64,000 nt of DNA from Tricharina praecox (lineage: Eukaryota). This document shows, piece by piece, positions 48,204-56,355 of the stretch (the first letter of the stretch is position 1; the number at the start of each line of letters is the position of its first letter). The DNA lies in NCBI RefSeq assembly GCF_024521635.1, contig NW_026250409.1, positions 930,001 through 994,000 of the forward strand, written 5' to 3'. A program made the position numbers and the translations under genes. Under the pieces are notes generated by a model that saw only the letters and a program-made list of their open reading frames with translations, was not told where the DNA came from and ran no database searches.

Positions 48204-50129
48204 ATGAACGGAACAAAAACCGCGCCCCACCATCCACGTCCATCTCCAACCCCCGCCTCCTCCGCCGCCGCCATCCCTCCTCCCTGCAAACGATTCCGCC
48301 GCGCGAACAACATGGCCGCCACCACCATCCAAGAGCGAAGAAAGAACTCCGCCGCTGGAGGCTGGGTTATCCAGAAGTTTGGCGGGACCAGCGTGGGAAA
48401 GTTCCCGGCGCAGATTGCGGAGAATATCGTTGGGTATGTGGTATGGATTGAGATTTGTGGTGGTGCTGGTGGTGGTGCTGGTAGTGGGGGTGGGGGTGGT
48501 GGGGACAATGCTGGTGGGGCTTTGTATAGCTGATGCGTGTGTGTAGACCCTCCATGAAGGACAACAAGATCGCCATTGTATGTTCCGCCCGGAGCACCGA
48601 TACCAAAGCGGAGGGCACAACGAACCGGTTCGTCTCCCGGAGTTCCCCCCGTCGTGTGGGGCTGATGGGCTGATGGTGGTGGTGGTAGCTTGATCCTCGC
48701 AGCGGAAGAGGCGCTGAAGCCGTCCTCGCGGTTATACGTTGGGATCGTGGACGCGATCCGGGAAGACCACATCCGCGCATCGAAGGAGGTGATCAGCGAT
48801 CCGGAGGTGCTGCAATCCCTTCAGGTGGAGATCGAGGAGGAGTGCGCACATCTTGCCAGCTTCCTCGGTGCGGCGCAGATCATCGACGAGATCTCCCCAA
48901 AGACCAAGGATGCGATCATCGGGACTGGAGAGAAGCTCAGTTGTATGTTTATGGCGGCGTTATTGAAGGATCGGGTATGTTATGCTGTCGGGAGGTGGCG
49001 GATGAGTGCTGATGTTGGATATGCGAATAGGGTATCGATGCCGAGTATGTCGACCTCGGAAACGTCGTTGATACTACGTACAACTCGAAGGGAGGGTTGA
49101 ATCAGGACTTCTACGATGCGCTGTCGAAGAACCTGGCGGAGAGGATAGAGCAGTGTGGAGACAAGCTACCGGTTGTCACTGGATACTTTGGCGTGGTGCC
49201 GGGAAGCTTGTTGACATCCGTTGGGAGGGGCTACACCGATCTCTGCGCGGCGCTTCTCGCCGTCGGCCTAGACGCACACGAGCTCCAGGTGTGGAAGGAA
49301 GTCGACGGCATCTTCACCGCCGACCCCCGGAAAGTCGTCACGGCCCGCCTGATTTCGATCATCACCCCCGAGGAGGCGGCCGAGCTCACCTACTACGGCT
49401 CCGAGGTGATCCATCCGTTCACCATGGAGCAGGTGATCCGCGCGCGGATCCCAATCCGGATCAAGAACGTCGAGAACCCCAGCGGGGAGGGCACCATGAT
49501 CTTTCCCGACACGCTCGCACGCAAGGGTGAAGACACACCGAGCGAGATCCCGCGCCACTTCCGGAACCGCTCGCACGACGCGCTGCTGCAGCCGCGCCAC
49601 TTGCGGCCCACCGCCGTCACGACGAAGAGCAACATTGTCGTGCTGAACGTCCACTCAAACCGCAAGAGTCTCAGCCACGGATTCCTGGCGGGCATCTTCC
49701 AGATCCTGGATCAGCACCAGCTCTGTGTGGATCTCATCTCTACGTCCGAGGTGCACGTGTCGATGGCGCTGCAGTCCGAGGTCAAGGACCATGCGTTGAA
49801 GCAGGCGCTCGAAGAGTTGAAGCGCCATGGCTCCGTCGATGTCATCCGGAACTTGACCATTCTGAGTTTGGTCGGCAAGCAGATGAAGCACATGATTGGT
49901 ATTGCGGGCCGCATGTTCACCACTCTGGCAAAGGCCAACGTCAACATCGAGATGATATCCCAAGGTGCGCATCCCCCTTCATGCAGCGATTCTTGTAGAA
50001 GCGATACACTGATGCACAATAACAACAGGAGCGAGTGAAATCAACATTAGCTGCGTGATCAATGAGGACGACGCAATCAGGGCTATGAATGTGCTCCACA
50101 CACAGCTGTTTACATATCAAGACATGTAA
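48204..50129 (+). CDS. HOM3: Aspartokinase; multi-exon; start could be 48204 or 48312
   Basis: WVIQKFGGTSVGK, VCSARS, GEKLSC, VVTGYFG, GRGYTDLCAAL, WKEVDGIFTADPRKV, EAAELTYYGSEVIHPFTM, ACT domains, MISQGASEINISCVI. Confidence 0.97.
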
Positions 50130-50624
50130 ATACATAGCTTTTTCTGGTTGCTTTTTGTTGCTGTTTTCTGGCGTTGGATAGTTCGAGCCACACTTTGGGA
50201 TTTTCTTGGTCGATTTAGTTAGAATACCTTCTGTAGGCTGTAGAGATGAAGTCTAAAGAGTTGTTTTTTTGGGTTGTTTCTTCGTTGATCGCATGTAGCC
50301 TATCAGATGACAAATTGGTTTCTGTTGGTTCGTTTGATCATACATACTCGCATTCGGCCTAACCACCGGTACACTACGGCGACTTAGCGAGTTGATGTTT
50401 TTCTTCTATTTCTTTTTCAATCATCAATTGCATGTGATTAACGACGAATTGATGCTTCCTCATGTGTTCACGAACCGATGGTCGGCACAGTGATCTGACA
50501 TGATTGGCCCCACGAATGATCATCGCCAAGGAGGGATGTCTCGGGACGCACAGACCATGTACCAAGCGCTGCTCATGCAGGTTCTCGGCGCACGTACGCA
50601 CGATCACCAACCATCACCCCACCA

Positions 50625-51889
50625 ATGTCGCACATCACCCGGCACCTCCGGCGGGCGCTCTCCACCACCGCCGGGACCTCCACCGGCACCTCCGTCGCTG
50701 CCCCACGCGTCGTCTTCTCGGGCATCCAACCGACTGGCGTCCCGCACCTCGGCAACTACCTCGGAGCGCTGCGCACATGGGCGGACATCCAGGCCTCAGC
50801 GTCGGCGGACACGCAGCTGATCTTCAGCATTGTCGACTTGCACGCGATCACGCAGCCGCAGGCCGCCGAAACCCTGCGGAAGGCGAGGAGAGAGACGCTC
50901 GCGACTATCCTCGCCGTCGGTATCGACCCGGAGCGCTGCACGCTGTTCGAGCAGAGCAGGGTCCCGCACCATGCTGAGCTCATGTGGATCCTCAGCTGCG
51001 GCGCGAGTACGGGTTACCTCAGTCGGATGACTCAGTGGAAGGTATGTACCACGACGAAACGGCGAGAGGCGGCGCTGAGTGTCGCGACAGAGTAAATTGG
51101 GCGTCAAGGAGGATGTGAATGCGTTTGAGGGAAAGTCCACGGCGAAACTGAAGTTGGGGCTGTTTTCGTATCCAGTTTTGCAGGCGGCGGATATTTTGGT
51201 GCACAGGTTTGTTTCCTATGAAGTTGGAGGGGAGGGGAAGGGTACGGCTGATGGAAGTAGGGCTACAGATGTGCCCGTGGGAGAAGATCAGGTGCAGCAC
51301 CTCGAGTTCACCCGTGAAATCGTCGGAACATTCCACAGCTCGTACGGCGAAGTATTCCCGCTTCCTAAAACAATCCTCTGTAACACGCACCTACCCACTC
51401 ATCCGATAGCTGGCTGCTGACATTGAACGCACAGCACCGGCGCGAAGAGTAATGTCACTCCGTGACCCACTCCAGAAAATGTCCAAATCCGATCCACAGC
51501 CGTTGTCCCGGATCCTCTTGACCGATGGTCCCGACACGATCTGGGAGAAGCTGAAGAAGTCGATGACGGATTCCGAGCTGGGAGTCAGTTACGATCCTAA
51601 AAATCGACCGGGCGTGTCGAATCTGATCGAGATATATGCGCACATGCAGCGGAGAGACGATTTCGGCGCTATCGCACAGGAGTGGGAAAATCTAGAGAAG
51701 AAGGAGCTCAAGATGCGGGTTGCAGAGTGTATTTCTGAGGGATTGAAGCCCGTCAGAGAGGAGTATGAAAGGATCATGAAGGAGGGCGACGGGTATCTTG
51801 ATAAGATCGCAGAGAAGGGTGCGGCTAAGGCGAGAGAGAGCGCGGAGAAGACGATGGTCCTCGTCAGGAAGGCTATGGGATTGGCGTGA
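50625..51889 (+). CDS. MSW1: Mitochondrial tryptophanyl-tRNA synthetase, 4 exons
   Basis: Presequence; [18 protein letters not shown] (HIGH motif), [47 protein letters not shown]. Confidence 0.96.
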
Positions 51890-52294: not shown

Positions 52295-54231
52295 ATGGCG
52301 AAGAAACCGAAGCCGACGAACACACCAACGAAAGAGGAGCCAGCGAAAACCCCAAAGAAAACGAAGCGGGAGAAAATACCGCCCAAACCGCCCTCCCGCT
52401 GGGCGCGCAAAGAAGGCGAGCTTATCACCCTCACAGCAGCGACCTGCAAAGCGAAGTATCACAACAGCTTCCGTTTCACCCCGCTGTATTCGCGACATGT
52501 TACTCTGAGATCCATCCGCAAGCCCAAGGTTTACATCCCCGTAGCCGTTGTCCATGGGCCGCTAACACCCGCTAGGCATTCTACGCCACAATCGGCCTCA
52601 CCAAGAAAGACGTAAAGCAATTCCACCTGCGCGCGCCGTTGAAATACAACATCATCAGCTCGGCTTTCATGCGGCTGCACCCGAAGGATCTGAAGACCGT
52701 GCTGTTGGATGACATCGTCAGGTACATCTATGTCATTGAGTATGACGACGATGACGGCAACGGCGGTACCAAGAAGGCTTATGATATCGTCCTCACCGAT
52801 TCGCCCATGACGGCAAAGGAAGAAGATATCCTGAAGGAAATCCCACCGGACCCGCCCTCCCGGGGGGTCCGCGTAGAAGGCGAGCTCATCGTCCTCACCG
52901 AAGCGTCCTCCCAAATCAAGTATAGCGAGATGTTCCGCTTCACCCCGCGGAGGGTGCGGCCTCTTAATCCGAGATCGATCAACACGCCAAATGTATGTTA
53001 TGTATCTCAGACCCTTCCTCCTTCTCCTCCTCTGCCTATAGATATTAACATCTGCTAGAAATTCTACAAACTCCTGGGTGTCCTGAGAAAGAATGTTAAC
53101 AACTACTTCCTGCACAGCCCGCTGAAGTATAATCTGATCACCTCGGCGTACATGCGCATGCACCCGAGAGACCTGGGTTCTGTGCTGGATGATAATGTCA
53201 TCAAGTACATCTATGTCATCGAATATGACGATGATGATGGGAACAATGGCACGAAGAGGACGTGGGATATTGTCCTTACCGATACGCCTATGATAGATCG
53301 CGATGAGGTGCATGAGGGTGATGAGGAGGACGAGGAGGACGAGGAGGATGAGGAGGACGAGCAGGATGAGGAGGATGAGGAGGATGAGAAGAAGAAGAAG
53401 AATAAGAATAAGAGACGAGAGTCAACGATGTCAGAGACCGAGAAGCTCGAGATTGAGACGGAGGATGGGAAGAAGAAGAAGAAGAATTCAAAAGAGGAGA
53501 AGGCTACCGCTGAGGAGGAAGGAGATGAGGACAAGACCCCGACCAAGACACCAAAGCAGAAGACACCGTCAAAGGGAGGAAAGAAAGCCAATATTATTGA
53601 GCCAGACAAGGAAGACACAGGACCTACCGCTTCGTCGAAGAAGAGGAAAAAGACCGGAGATGAAGAAGAGGAGCAGAAAACACCGAAGTCTTCCACGAAG
53701 AGAAGGAAGAGCACAGCTGAGAAAACGGAGGAGAAACCAAAATCGTCTACAAAGAAAAAGCAGAGTTCTGCAGAGAAAGAGGAAAAGGAAGATGACAAGC
53801 CGACGACCCCATCAAAAAGGAAGGCCAAAACAGAGGAGCAGGAAACACCGAAGAGTTCCACGAAGAGAAGGAGGAGCGCAGCTGAGAAAACGGAGGAGAC
53901 GCCGAAAACTCCGGCAAAGAAAAGGCAGAGTACTGTGGGGGAAGAGGAAAAGGAAGATGACAAGCCGACGACCCCATCACGAAGGAAGAAGGCCAAGACA
54001 GAGGAACAGGAAGAGGCAAAGACTCCGGTCAAAGGAGGTGGGAGTGCCACCAGGAAAAAGGAAGAGGAGAAGTCGAAGACTTCTGCAAAAAGAAGACAGT
54101 TTACTGTGGAGGTAGAGGTAAAGCCCAAGATCCCAGCAAAGAGGAAGAAGGCCAATACCGAGGAAGAAGAAGAAGAAGAAGAAGAAGTCATGCCTCCGGC
54201 CAAGAGAAAGAAGAGGATCTCTAGAAGTTAG
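52295..54231 (+). CDS. Orphan protein with two tandem copies of an unrecognised ~135-aa domain, an acidic stretch and a Lys/Glu/TP-rich repetitive tail; 3 exons
   Basis: Removing introns 52529-52575 and 52993-53058 (both phase 0, GT-AG) joins ORFs 52295, 52639 and 53152 into one frame; the internal duplication is visible in the protein. Confidence 0.8.
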
Positions 54232-54698
54232 GCTACAGCTAGTTTTCTCCTCCTTTCATTCTTCTAAACACCACGTAGCCTTAGATCTGCTGTTGTATGA
54301 TGTCCTTTTTCTTCCATCATCAATCGCTTTCGACCTTTCTAGACCATGGGATATGTACACATCTGTCTTGCTTTTCCGTCCGCCCCGGCCATAAAGATTC
54401 CGCTACCACTCGTTTTATGATGCTGCAGTTTATGTCCCTATATTTTTGACACTCCGCAGAGCAGAGGTGTCCGAGTGATCACAGAGCATGCACACGTCAC
54501 CAGTAACATAGTCGCGTAGAGTAGCACTCGTACCACGCGCCAAGGCTAGTTAAACCCGTAACATCCCCCACGCCATCCAGAGCTCTTGCATTCCGTTCCG
54601 CTATCACTCACTCACTCACTCACTCAGCACCTTCCCCTCCCTCAATCCCCAACCCACCACGCGAACCTACCTACCACAACCACCACCTCATCTGCACA

Positions 54699-55864
54699 AT
54701 GGTACTCCACAACAACAGTAACACCTCCCCTCCCCACTCCCGAGGAATAAGGCAGTTCTGATGCCCTACGCTATATAGAGTGGGACCGTAAACAAAACCG
54801 CGACCGCGTGCGCAAGCTCAAGGCGAAGGGAAAAGAGGATCCGGCCGCTGCTGTCACCGCCGCCGCTGCTAAGGATGCTAAGGATGGCAAAGTCGGAGGC
54901 AGATGCAGGCGCGGTAAGGCTGCGGGTGGGGTTGTGACGCCGGCCGGGGCCAAAAAAGATGAAGAAGAAGATGAAGAAGAAGAGGAGACTGAGAGCTCGG
55001 GCTCGGAGGACGGTGAGGACGGGGAGGAGGAGAATGGCGAGGACGGCGAGGAAAACGCGCACAAGGGCCAGTTTAGTCGGCGGAAGCTGGCCAGTAATTC
55101 CTGGCGGTACGAGAAGGCTGCTGCAGCCGGGGACAATCTGCTCGGTGAGTTTAAGTTTTGGTTTTGGTTTTGGTTTTGGGCTCTGTCACCATCTACACGA
55201 TACGATACTGGGGTCGGGGGAGGAGGGTGGGAGGAGGGGTGGGGGGTTTCGCTAACACGTTTCATCTACAGACCCGAGCGGCGCACATGCACGAGCGGGG
55301 GGGGAGGGGGAGGAGGATGGAGAGGAGGAGGAGGAGGTGCACGAGGACTACGTTGCGCTCACGCTGGCGAAGAAGGGCGGGCAGTGGGTGGATGCGCAGG
55401 AGGAGAAGATACGCAGCGGGGCGGTTGACGCGGCGTTTCTGCGGGAGAGCTGGACTCCGGCGAGCACGAAACAGCCGCTGATCAGTGCGCTGCCGATGAA
55501 GGGGAATATCGTCAAGGTGGACAGGAAGGACTTCGTCGACGTCACGGAAAAGATCGCGAAGAGGAATAATGCCGATGCGTTCCGGGCGAGGTTCGAGAGT
55601 AGTAAGAGTAAGGCGAAGAAGAGGGCGCCGAGAATGGCGGCGGACGATACGGGCGGCGGCGACGGCGACGACGACGGTGACGATCTGGATGCGTTCCTGG
55701 GAGGTCTGGAACTGGATCCAAAATTGGCGGGGAGGGGGAAGGAGGACGACGATAAGCAGGCGGCGGCCGCGTGGTCACGGGAGATACGGCCTGCTGTGGC
55801 GCCGCCGGCTGATGAGGTGGAGACCGGAGACGAGTGGTTGGATCAGATGCTGGGTGGCCGTTGA
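54699..55864 (+). CDS. Low-complexity hypothetical protein with AVEN-like motifs, 3 exons
   Basis: Introns 54718-54778 and 55145-55271 give MVLHNNKWDRKQNR...FSRRKLASNSWRYE...EDYVALT...DDLDAFLGGL...DEWLDQMLGGR* in one frame. Confidence 0.75.
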
Positions 55865-56196
55865 TTGTACAATCTACAAATTACGGATCCCCGCCTCCGT
55901 GCCCTTCGCCTCCCTACCCCACCCCCTGAATTCCTGATGAACCAGTTAAAGTGCAATTGGTGATTTCTGAGATTTCATCCGTTTTGCTCTTTTACCGGTA
56001 TTTGTTTTTCCATTTGGATATTTAAATTTCCCGTCGATACAAGTGAAGGCTGAAGGCTCAAACCAAGTGGGTATGTCGTTTGAGCCACCAGCCTTCCTTC
56101 CTTCCTTCGAGATGAATCAACTAACCGGATCATCCGAACACGCTCACTCGCCATTACTTGGCCCGTAGGTGCTCTCGTACATGGCAAGGCGACACC

Positions 56197-56355
56197 TACT
56201 GTATAGTGAAGGGGAGGGTAAAAAATACGCTTTGTGGCCGTACCGATACGGAAAAAAAGCGTATCGATACGGTCAAAATACGTAACGATACGCTTTTTTC
56301 CGTATCGGTACGGCCACAAAGCGTATTTTTTTACCCTCCCCTTCACTATACAGTA
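56197..56355. mobile_element. MITE-like foldback element with ~70-bp inverted arms, TA at both ends
   Basis: TA-CTGTATAGTGAAGGGGAGGGTAAAAAATACGCTTTGTGGCCGTACCGATACGG... is mirrored by ...CCGTATCGGTACGGCCACAAAGCGTATTTTTTTACCCTCCCCTTCACTATACAG-TA; the arms differ by single-base homopolymer indels; no coding capacity. Confidence 0.65.

What the first reader, a model, noticed from the sequence alone, without database searches (positions are those of the whole stretch)
54699..55864. Candidate fungal homolog of AVEN, the ribosome-stalling/SKI-associated factor
Seen after splicing: basic Gly-rich N-terminus, acidic run, FSRRKLASNSWRYE, then EDYVALT, DDLDAFL and terminal DEWLDQML. From memory, not searched: vertebrate AVEN has an acidic run followed by YSKRKIVSNWDRY, then TDFSVLL, and ends in EDWLDSMIS, the same motifs in the same order. 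Known: mammalian AVEN is an RNA-binding protein linked to SKI-complex translation surveillance. Inference: a remote AVEN-family member, suggesting this quality-control branch exists in filamentous fungi, where I know of no characterised member.
Basis: partly seen in the sequence, partly recalled or inferred. Interest (0 to 1): 0.7.

Follow-up and report, generated by a model that had tools for sequence, protein, structure and literature searches.

The report
Fungal member of the AVEN family
This is a real, expressed three-exon fungal gene for a mostly disordered acidic protein of the AVEN family, which papers still call animal-only although databases already tag fungal members, and its function in fungi is untested.

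Summary
Spliced transcript contigs from two runs of two studies confirm both introns.

The motifs are conserved well beyond chance. A profile of 11 Pezizomycete orthologs found 149 relatives at E<=1e-3. All 18 of the 30 looked up that carry an organism name are fungi, from chytrids to budding and fission yeasts.

The AVEN link rests on database labels, not on an alignment made here. Three orthologs carry a precomputed PF28377 hit. The ESM Atlas names PF28377 "AVEN" and shows it on 89% of a chordate Aven cluster and 79% of a basidiomycete cluster. I held no animal AVEN sequence, so no direct alignment was possible.

The window protein lacks the RGG/RG box that binds RNA in mammalian AVEN. AVEN's partner FOCAD is reported absent from fungi (PMC6711988, PMC8116306).

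Verdict: a new member of a known, database-tagged family. A role with the SKI complex in fungi is inferred only. S. pombe SPCC1919.07 is a tractable, uncharacterised relative.

The parts
54699..54717 (+). Exon 1: ATG plus 19 nt of CDS, encoding MVLHNN and the first base of K7.
   Evidence: The same N-terminus, MVLH.NKW.RK, is found in orthologs. The transcript contigs join 54717 to 54779.
54718..54778 (+). Intron 1, 61 nt, GT..AG.
   Evidence: Skipped exactly by one contig in each of runs X1 and X2 (table 5).
54779..55144 (+). Exon 2: a basic Ala/Gly/Lys-rich segment, an acidic run, then the FSRRKLASNSWRYE motif.
54781..54831 (+). Rest of the conserved N-terminal basic helix (residues 8-24, WDRK..R..RK..G).
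   Evidence: 64-90% of 51 family members have a similar residue at W8, D9, R10, K11, R14, R18, K19 and G24. In the model of ortholog P0006 this is helix 7-22, with block pLDDT up to 87.
55072..55113 (+). Motif FSRRKLASNSWRYE (residues 105-118), the family's hallmark.
   Evidence: N113, R116 and Y117 are similar in 98% of 51 members, L110 in 96%. This motif anchors the match to the non-ascomycete profile.
55145..55271 (+). Intron 2, 127 nt, GTGAGT..CTACAG, with GTTTTG repeats.
   Evidence: The transcript contigs hold 81 letters for window 55143-55350, which is 208 minus 127 (table 8).
55272..55864 (+). Exon 3 with stop codon: EDYVALT, the central helical block, DDLDAFL and the C-terminal DEWLDQMLGGR.
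55343..55363 (+). Motif EDYVALT (residues 153-159).
   Evidence: D154 is similar in 82% and L158 in 70% of 51 members. D and Y are invariant among the 11 Pezizomycete orthologs.
55499..55594 (+). Central conserved block, residues 205-236 (K..I..F..V..I.K..R.RF).
   Evidence: Similar in 66-88% of 51 members. It is helix 167-194 with block pLDDT about 90 in the P0006 model. This is the block aligned to S. pombe SPCC1919.07 (hhalign probability 96%).
55679..55699 (+). Motif DDLDAFL (residues 265-271).
   Evidence: D268 is similar in 86% and F270 in 80% of 51 members. It is helix 212-222 in the P0006 model.
55829..55852 (+). C-terminal motif DEWLDQML (residues 315-322).
   Evidence: W317, L318, D319, M321 and L322 are similar in 96-98% of 51 members. 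It is helix 254-264 in the P0006 model.
54633..56200 (+). Minimum extent covered by the spliced transcript contig of run X1. Contigs cannot fix true transcript ends.
   Evidence: table 8. Record 2 is 1410 nt long and runs past the end of the laid stretch.

Best explanation
The gene encodes a fungal member of the AVEN family (Pfam PF28377). The protein is acidic (pI 4.8) and intrinsically disordered. Its only conserved parts are a string of short, mostly helical motifs: an N-terminal basic helix starting at Met1, [FY]SRRK..SN.WRY after an acidic run, E.DY..L, a central amphipathic helix, D(L/I)D.FL, and a C-terminal (D/E)WLD.ML.

Shown here: the gene is real, spliced and expressed. The motif set is conserved in the same order across every fungal group sampled here. 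Relatives carry the AVEN Pfam label, which chordate AVEN shares.

Inferred: like mammalian AVEN, it acts as a non-enzymatic adaptor. Its linear motifs would dock onto a conserved partner of translation-coupled mRNA surveillance, such as the SKI complex or the ribosome. Because it has no RGG/RG box, it would not bind G-quadruplex RNA the way mammalian AVEN does. Because FOCAD is reported missing from fungi, the docking would have to be direct or go through another bridge.

My odds are about 0.85 that it is a true AVEN homolog and about 0.35 that it acts with the SKI complex or on stalled ribosomes.
For: Gene model and expression.

Orthologs: 8 hits at E<=1e-3 for exon 3 and 17 at E<=0.01 for P0006. 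P0006, P0011 and P0019 carry precomputed PF28377.1.

PF28377 is named AVEN by the Atlas (Pfam 38.1). In one search, 15 of the 30 nearest clusters to P0006 belong to the PF28377 set, including a 'Cell death regulator Aven family protein' cluster (Zoopagomycota). In one search, the PF28377 set again counts 15 of the 30 listed hits to P0157. Listed clusters include a basidiomycete one (79% with PF28377, score 0.92) and a chordate 'putative cell death regulator Aven isoform X1' cluster (89% with PF28377, score 0.89, 183 shared features).

Family breadth: 149 hits at E<=1e-3, 64 at <=1e-10 and 18 at <=1e-30.

Reciprocal check: a non-ascomycete profile scores the window protein 49.5 bits against a maximum of 6.4 bits for 2000 shuffles. 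The two matched stretches are collinear, at the SN.WRY motif and at the DLDAFL..WLD.ML region.

Architecture: the Mortierellomycete relative P0157 has 6 RGG, then an acidic run, then the hallmark motif, then a C-terminal WLD motif. This is the mammalian layout as described in PMC4561382 (passages read).

Disorder with isolated helices at the motifs: mean pLDDT 62.8 and pTM 0.21; the Atlas model has pTM 0.15.

[quoted passage not shown] AVEN and FOCAD protein levels depend on each other, and loss of either destabilises SKIV2L and TTC37 (passages of PMC11864970).
Against: Of 30 hits looked up from my profile search, the 18 with an organism name are all fungi and 12 carry no organism.

The local Pfam copy lacks PF28377. 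The window protein itself was therefore never scored against it, and searches found no family. The strength of the precomputed hits is not shown, and only 3 of the 11 named Pezizomycete orthologs carry one.

Atlas scores of 0.89-0.94 are leads by that tool's own caveats.

The RGG/RG box is absent: 0 RGG and 1 RG.

Nothing here tests any binding or phenotype. No genome was held, so SKI and FOCAD genes of this fungus could not be checked.
Confidence: 0.6

Rival explanations
1. It is a true AVEN homolog whose fungal job is unrelated to the SKI complex. With the RGG box lost and FOCAD absent, the conserved motifs would serve another partner, for example in ribosome or nucleolar assembly, nuclear transport or chaperoning of basic proteins.
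For: There are 0 RGG in the window protein and in most ascomycete members. FOCAD is reported absent from fungi. The protein is strongly acidic (pI 4.8). Mammalian AVEN also has reported roles outside RNA decay, with a putative BH3 domain, a nuclear export signal and ATM activation (PMC4561382).
Against: The motifs shared across fungi are the ones that define the family, so a conserved partner is the simplest reading. The SKI complex is the one conserved AVEN-associated machine known to exist in fungi (yeast Ski2/3/8, passages of PMC7083229).
Confidence: 0.28
2. It is not an AVEN relative. It would be a fungus-specific disordered protein whose short acidic and aromatic motifs resemble AVEN by convergence, with weak or spurious Pfam and Atlas labels.
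For: No alignment to animal AVEN was made here. Only 3 of 11 named Pezizomycete orthologs carry the precomputed hit. Low-complexity acidic proteins attract weak hits. The Atlas warns that scores near 0.9 occur for 4-10% of shuffled proteins.
Against: The same Pfam model sits on 89% of a chordate Aven cluster and 79% of a basidiomycete cluster. The window protein matches the basidiomycete and early-fungal relatives at 49.5 bits against 6.4 for shuffles. P0157 shows the full RGG, acidic run, hallmark motif and C-terminal motif layout.
Confidence: 0.1
3. The region is a mis-spliced or non-functional ORF: a chance open frame in GC-rich, low-complexity DNA.
For: Overlapping long ORFs exist in other frames and on the minus strand in this GC-rich region.
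Against: Spliced transcript contigs from two studies have exact GT..AG junctions. The protein matches an ortholog profile end to end at 228.8 bits. There are 149 relatives.
Confidence: 0.01

Closest known systems
Mammalian AVEN (cell death regulator Aven; Pfam PF28377)
   Same: Both carry the same Pfam family label, by proxy through orthologs. Both are disordered proteins with an acidic run followed by the [FY]S[KR]RK..SN..RY motif, a later D.D..L motif and a C-terminal (D/E)WLD motif.
   Different: The window protein has no RGG/RG box. In human AVEN that box, residues 1-73, binds G-quadruplex RNA and is methylated by PRMT1 (PMC4561382). The fungal proteins have a conserved N-terminal MVLHN.KW.RK helix and a central helix whose animal counterparts I could not examine. 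AVEN's partner FOCAD is reported absent from fungi.
Early-diverging fungal and basidiomycete 'Aven domain-containing' proteins, such as Gamsiella P0157, Gaertneriomyces P0142 and the Atlas basidiomycete cluster
   Same: They are homologous by profile: E 6.4e-4 and 1.6e-4, and 49.5 bits in the reverse direction. The motif order is the same.
   Different: P0157 keeps 6 RGG and is basic overall (pI 9.2). Their N-terminus reads MRPD.HK rather than MVLHN.KW.
S. pombe SPCC1919.07 (uncharacterised protein, 206 aa; P0166)
   Same: It lies in the cluster of hit P0119 (E 1.4e-5). hhalign gives 96% probability to the Pezizomycete profile over the central block and the DID.FL motif. It shares the N-terminal and C-terminal motifs.
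   Different: It is shorter, and its hallmark motif is degenerate. My full-text search for its systematic name found no paper; supplements were not searched.
S. cerevisiae Ska1 (YKL023W), the SKI-associated component
   Same: It is a small fungal protein with no known domain that binds the SKI complex (bioRxiv 10.1101/409490, passages). That is the role inferred here.
   Different: Ska1 is highly basic (pI 9.65), while the window protein has pI 4.8. Ska1 homologues are said to be restricted to S. cerevisiae and close relatives (PMC6711988). No Ska1 sequence was available, so similarity is untested.

Membership tests
AVEN (Pfam PF28377) | Match of the protein itself to the PF28377 model at its gathering score. 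| not testable with these tools
   The local Pfam copy (24736 models) returned no family for the window exons or for P0006, P0010, P0004 and P0005. P0006 nevertheless carries a precomputed PF28377.1 hit, so the model appears to be missing locally. By proxy, 3 of 11 named Pezizomycete orthologs (P0006, P0011, P0019) carry the precomputed hit.
AVEN (Pfam PF28377) | Significant sequence or profile alignment to an animal AVEN. | not testable with these tools
   No animal AVEN sequence came into the session. Among 149 profile hits, 30 were looked up: 18 carry an organism name and all are fungi, and 12 are unnamed. No AVEN chain appeared in the PDB searches. The indirect link is the Atlas chordate Aven cluster at 0.89 with 183 shared features for the fungal relative P0157.
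AVEN (Pfam PF28377) | Hallmark [FY]S[KR]RK..SN..RY motif after an acidic run, conserved among relatives. | tested here: met
   The motif lies at residues 105-118, preceded by 18 D/E in residues 71-104. N113, R116 and Y117 are similar in 98% of 51 fungal members.
AVEN (Pfam PF28377) | C-terminal (D/E)(D/E)WLD.M/L motif at the very end of the protein. | tested here: met
   DEWLDQMLGGR ends the protein. The motif residues are similar in 96-98% of 51 members.
AVEN (Pfam PF28377) | N-terminal RGG/RG box that binds RNA G-quadruplexes and is methylated by PRMT1 (PMC4561382). | tested here: not met
   The window protein has 0 RGG and 1 RG before the hallmark motif. RGG is kept in P0157 (6), P0086 (3), P0111 (2), P0140 (1), P0155 (1) and P0103 (1). 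It is 0 in the other 45 of 51 members.
AVEN (Pfam PF28377) | Physical association with FOCAD and the SKI complex. | not testable with these tools
   No genome is held for this window and no Ski or FOCAD sequences were available for a complex prediction. The literature reports FOCAD/RST1 absent from fungi.
Ska1 (YKL023W) | Basic protein (pI 9.65) with homologues in S. cerevisiae and close relatives. | tested here: not met
   The window protein has pI 4.8, and 50 of 51 family members have pI 4.5-6.3. The family spans all fungal phyla sampled. Direct sequence comparison was not possible.
DUF5364 (PF17322) | Match to the PF17322 model. | tested here: not met
   A DUF5364 cluster was an Atlas neighbour at 0.90 and 0.84. 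However, 0 of 51 family members matched PF17322 even at E<=10, and the window exons did not match it either.

The most novel reading that the evidence does not exclude
AVEN is not an animal invention. It would be an ancestral opisthokont factor that persists across the whole fungal kingdom, including fission yeast (SPCC1919.07) and several budding-yeast lineages, even though its only known direct partner FOCAD is reported lost from fungi. On this reading the fungal proteins dock directly on the Ski2/3/8 complex or the ribosome through the conserved N-terminal helix and the SN.WRY and WLD.ML motifs. They would be the missing general fungal counterpart of the SKI cofactor role that S. cerevisiae assigns to the lineage-restricted Ska1.
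Probability: 0.3. Interest if true: 0.65.

Novelty: new member of a known kind. Interest (0 to 1): 0.4.

Why it matters
Passages I read describe AVEN as 'metazoan-specific' (PMC8894942) or 'conserved from mammals to flies' (PMC7083229), and its partner FOCAD as absent from fungi (PMC6711988, PMC8116306). AVEN, FOCAD and SKI have become medically relevant through synthetic lethality with PELO/HBS1L in cancers (PMC11864970; listing of PMC13531002).

A kingdom-wide fungal AVEN family gives genetically tractable systems, S. pombe among them, for asking what the conserved AVEN motifs bind and do. It also lets one ask whether AVEN can work without FOCAD or an RGG box.

The gain is moderate, for three reasons. 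Pfam 38.1 and automatic protein names already tag fungal proteins as Aven-like. This gene is one ordinary member. Nothing functional is shown here.

Tried and rejected
- The exon 3 search with lengths 'longer' (344-2000 aa) found nothing. The full protein is 325 aa, so that was the wrong length band; 'near' worked.
- My first gene model had the ATG one base off. It was corrected.
- Local Pfam scans gave no meaningful family. The weak hits (CENP-B_dimeris, Paf1, Sof1, Pescadillo_N and others) are acidic low-complexity noise below their cut-offs.
- The DUF5364 lead from the Atlas was rejected: 0 of 51 members match, and no paper holds the term.
- PDB sequence searches with profiles A2 and A3 gave only insignificant hits: RBM41 at E 0.026, convicilin at 0.052, eIF1 at 1.2 and Sec3 at 5.3. 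No AVEN chain appeared among the PDB hits.
- The Atlas structure search gave all TM <=0.25 on a pTM 0.15 model, which is meaningless for a disordered protein.
- Searches of the window's own genome for FOCAD-type families failed because no genome is held. FOCAD co-occurrence is therefore untested.
- No run listed is on record as RNA. The two holders were labelled 'RNA?' by guess. Their contigs lack both introns, so I read them as transcript-derived.
- Earlier scan notes held nothing relevant.
- Literature searches for a described fungal AVEN found none. The searches were 'Aven, fungi, ortholog', 'cell death regulator Aven, fungal', SPCC1919.07, 'AVEN, S. pombe, SKIV2L' and 'Aven domain-containing protein / Aven family protein / PF28377 / PTHR16524'. 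They cover the main text of the held library only, not supplements.

Full report
**1. What is in the sequence**

The + strand between 54699 and 55864 holds a three-exon gene.
- Exon 1, 54699-54717, begins with ATG.
- Intron 1, 54718-54778, is 61 nt with GT..AG ends.
- Exon 2 is 54779-55144.
- Intron 2, 55145-55271, is 127 nt (GTGAGT..CTACAG).
- Exon 3, 55272-55864, ends in TGA.

The joined CDS is 978 nt and encodes 325 aa with a single terminal stop. I first placed the ATG one base too far right. I corrected it after orthologs showed the N-terminus MVLHNNKWDRK.

- FSRRKLASNSWRYE at residue 105
- EDYVALT at 153
- DDLDAFL at 265
- DEWLDQML at 315

An acidic run precedes the first of these, with 18 D/E in residues 71-104. 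The N-terminal 70 residues are basic (pI 10.1) but only 11% Gly, with 0 RGG and 1 RG.

**2. The gene is expressed and spliced as modelled**

Two public runs from two studies each hold a contig identical to the window (0 differences). Each contig joins 54717 directly to 54779. Each carries 81 letters between 55142 and 55351, which is exactly 208 minus the 127-nt intron. The runs are not on record as RNA. The intron-less contigs are what make me read them as transcript-derived.

**3. Conservation**

Exon 3 alone finds 8 relatives at E<=1e-3. The Sphaerosporella ortholog P0006 finds 17 at E<=0.01, all named ones in Pezizomycetes: Sphaerosporella, Trichophaea, Pyronema, Rhizina, Geopyxis, Ascodesmis, four Tuber species and Peziza.

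In the alignment of 11 orthologs, 28 columns are invariant, and they fall in the motifs. The spliced window protein matches that profile end to end at 228.8 bits.

The same profile, run against 1.84 billion representative proteins, gives 149 hits at E<=1e-3, 64 at <=1e-10 and 18 at <=1e-30. I looked up 30 of these hits. Eighteen have an organism name and all are fungi; twelve have none. The named ones are:
- Early-diverging fungi: Gamsiella (Mortierellomycota), Gaertneriomyces (chytrid), Coemansia, Bifiguratus.
- Basidiomycota: Sistotremastrum, Auricularia, Mrakia, Puccinia triticina, Exobasidium.
- Taphrinomycotina: Protomyces, Savitreella, Saitoella, S. pombe, S. japonicus.
- Saccharomycotina: Brettanomyces nanus, Pachysolen, Nadsonia, Geotrichum.

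Across 51 full-length members, the window residues most often conserved are these:
- M1-K11, R14, R18-K19 and G24
- F105, R107-R108, L110, S112-N113 and W115-Y117
- E150, D154 and L158
- a central block from K205 to F236
- D265-L274
- D315-L322

As a reverse check, a profile built only from 11 non-ascomycete members scores the window protein 49.5 bits. It does so in two collinear stretches. The best of 2000 shuffles of the protein scores 6.4 bits.

**4. The link to AVEN**

P0006, P0011 and P0019 carry a precomputed Pfam hit, PF28377.1. The ESM Atlas, which uses Pfam 38.1, names PF28377 'AVEN'.
- For P0006, 15 of the 30 nearest clusters belong to the PF28377 set. One is called 'Cell death regulator Aven family protein' (Zoopagomycota).
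- For the Gamsiella relative P0157, neighbours include a basidiomycete cluster, 'Cell death regulator Aven domain-containing protein' (79% with PF28377, score 0.92). They also include a chordate cluster, 'putative cell death regulator Aven isoform X1' (89% with PF28377, score 0.89, 183 shared features).

So one curated profile covers both chordate AVEN and these fungal proteins.

There are limits to this evidence. The local Pfam copy lacks the model, so I could not score the window protein against it. I held no animal AVEN sequence, so I made no alignment. The Atlas scores are leads by that tool's own statement.

P0157 shows an RGG box (6 RGG), then an acidic run, the hallmark motif and the C-terminal WLD motif. 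That matches the domain scheme described for human AVEN in PMC4561382 (passages).

**5. What kind of protein it is**

AlphaFold2 on ortholog P0006, with the 51-sequence alignment, gives mean pLDDT 62.8 and pTM 0.21. There is no globular fold. Isolated helices sit at residues 7-22, 30-37, 94-97, 116-125, 131-151, 167-194, 212-222 and 254-264; most of them overlie the conserved motifs. The segments between them are below pLDDT 50.

The protein is acidic (pI 4.8), as are 50 of 51 relatives. This is the signature of a disordered adaptor that works through short linear motifs, not of an enzyme.

**6. Mechanism: what is shown and what is inferred**

For mammals, I read the following in passages:
- AVEN and FOCAD levels depend on each other, and loss of either destabilises SKIV2L and TTC37 (PMC11864970).
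- The RGG/RG box binds G-quadruplex RNA (PMC4561382).

For the fungal protein, only homology and expression are shown. I infer that the conserved motifs dock on a conserved partner of translation-coupled surveillance. Two facts argue against simple transfer of the mammalian model:
- The RGG box is missing here and in 45 of 51 family members.
- FOCAD/RST1 is reported absent from fungi (PMC6711988; PMC8116306).

I could not check SKI or FOCAD genes in this organism, because no genome is held.

**7. Comparison with the known**

The closest known protein is AVEN itself. The differences are the missing RGG box, a fungus-wide N-terminal helix and the missing partner.

Ska1 of S. cerevisiae is a functional analogue at most. 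It is basic (pI 9.65) and lineage-restricted, and no sequence comparison was possible.

The DUF5364 lead from the Atlas fails, with 0 of 51 members matching.

S. pombe SPCC1919.07 is a family member: cluster of P0119 at E 1.4e-5, and hhalign probability 96%. My full-text search for its name found no paper.

**8. Novelty and score**

Papers I read call AVEN metazoan-specific. Five full-text searches found no description of a fungal AVEN; supplements were not searched. Pfam 38.1 and automatic names, however, already label fungal proteins as Aven-like.

The window gene is therefore a new member of a known, database-tagged family. The functional inference is open and somewhat weakened.

Interest is 0.4. 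The boldest reading not excluded is a FOCAD-independent, kingdom-wide fungal SKI or ribosome cofactor. I give it probability about 0.3 and interest 0.65 if true.

Noticed in passing
window 50520-51889 (+); proteins P0040 and P0031: A class I Trp/Tyr-type tRNA synthetase gene (PF00579, E 1.8e-28 and 4.2e-14 on two ORF pieces) lies about 3 kb upstream of the AVEN-like gene. Two library proteins from other sources are gene models that fuse a tRNA-synt_1b domain to an AVEN-like C-terminal part (P0040, 625 aa; P0031, 391 aa). This suggests conserved adjacency, or merged annotations, in other fungi.
   Followed up: partly
window 56197-56355: A near-perfect palindrome of about 159 bp lies downstream of the stop codon. 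It has 29-nt outer arms that are 100% complementary and 47-nt inner arms at 91%. It looks like a MITE or hairpin element. The arm sequence occurs only here in the window. The X1 transcript contig runs into its left arm.
   Followed up: partly
window 53059-54231 (+): A long open frame encodes a very Lys/Glu/Thr-rich repetitive protein with repeated TPKSSTK(R/K)R..AEK units. It ends 468 bp before the AVEN-like start codon and has no Pfam family.
   Followed up: no
window 49031-50038 (+): An ORF carries amino-acid kinase and ACT domains (PF00696 at 1.9e-25, PF22468 at 6e-20). It is probably an aspartate kinase exon.
   Followed up: no
window 54597-54632 and 55143-55189: Two simple repeats flank or sit inside the gene. 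One is a (CACT/CTCA)n run just upstream of the transcript contig's first base. The other is a (GTTTTG)n run at the start of intron 2. Both were masked as repeats when contigs were laid.
   Followed up: no
proteins P0157, P0086, P0111, P0140, P0155, P0103: RGG repeats ahead of the hallmark motif survive in the Mortierellomycete member (6) and in some basidiomycete or unnamed members (1-3). They are absent from all ascomycete members examined. This suggests the RNA-binding box is ancestral and was lost in Ascomycota.
   Followed up: partly
family-wide, residues 1-24 of the window protein: The very first residues (M-V-L-H-N-x-K-W-D/K-R/K-K) are among the most conserved in the family across Dikarya, at 70-100% of 51 members. 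That is unusual for a disordered protein and hints at an N-terminus-specific function or modification.
   Followed up: no
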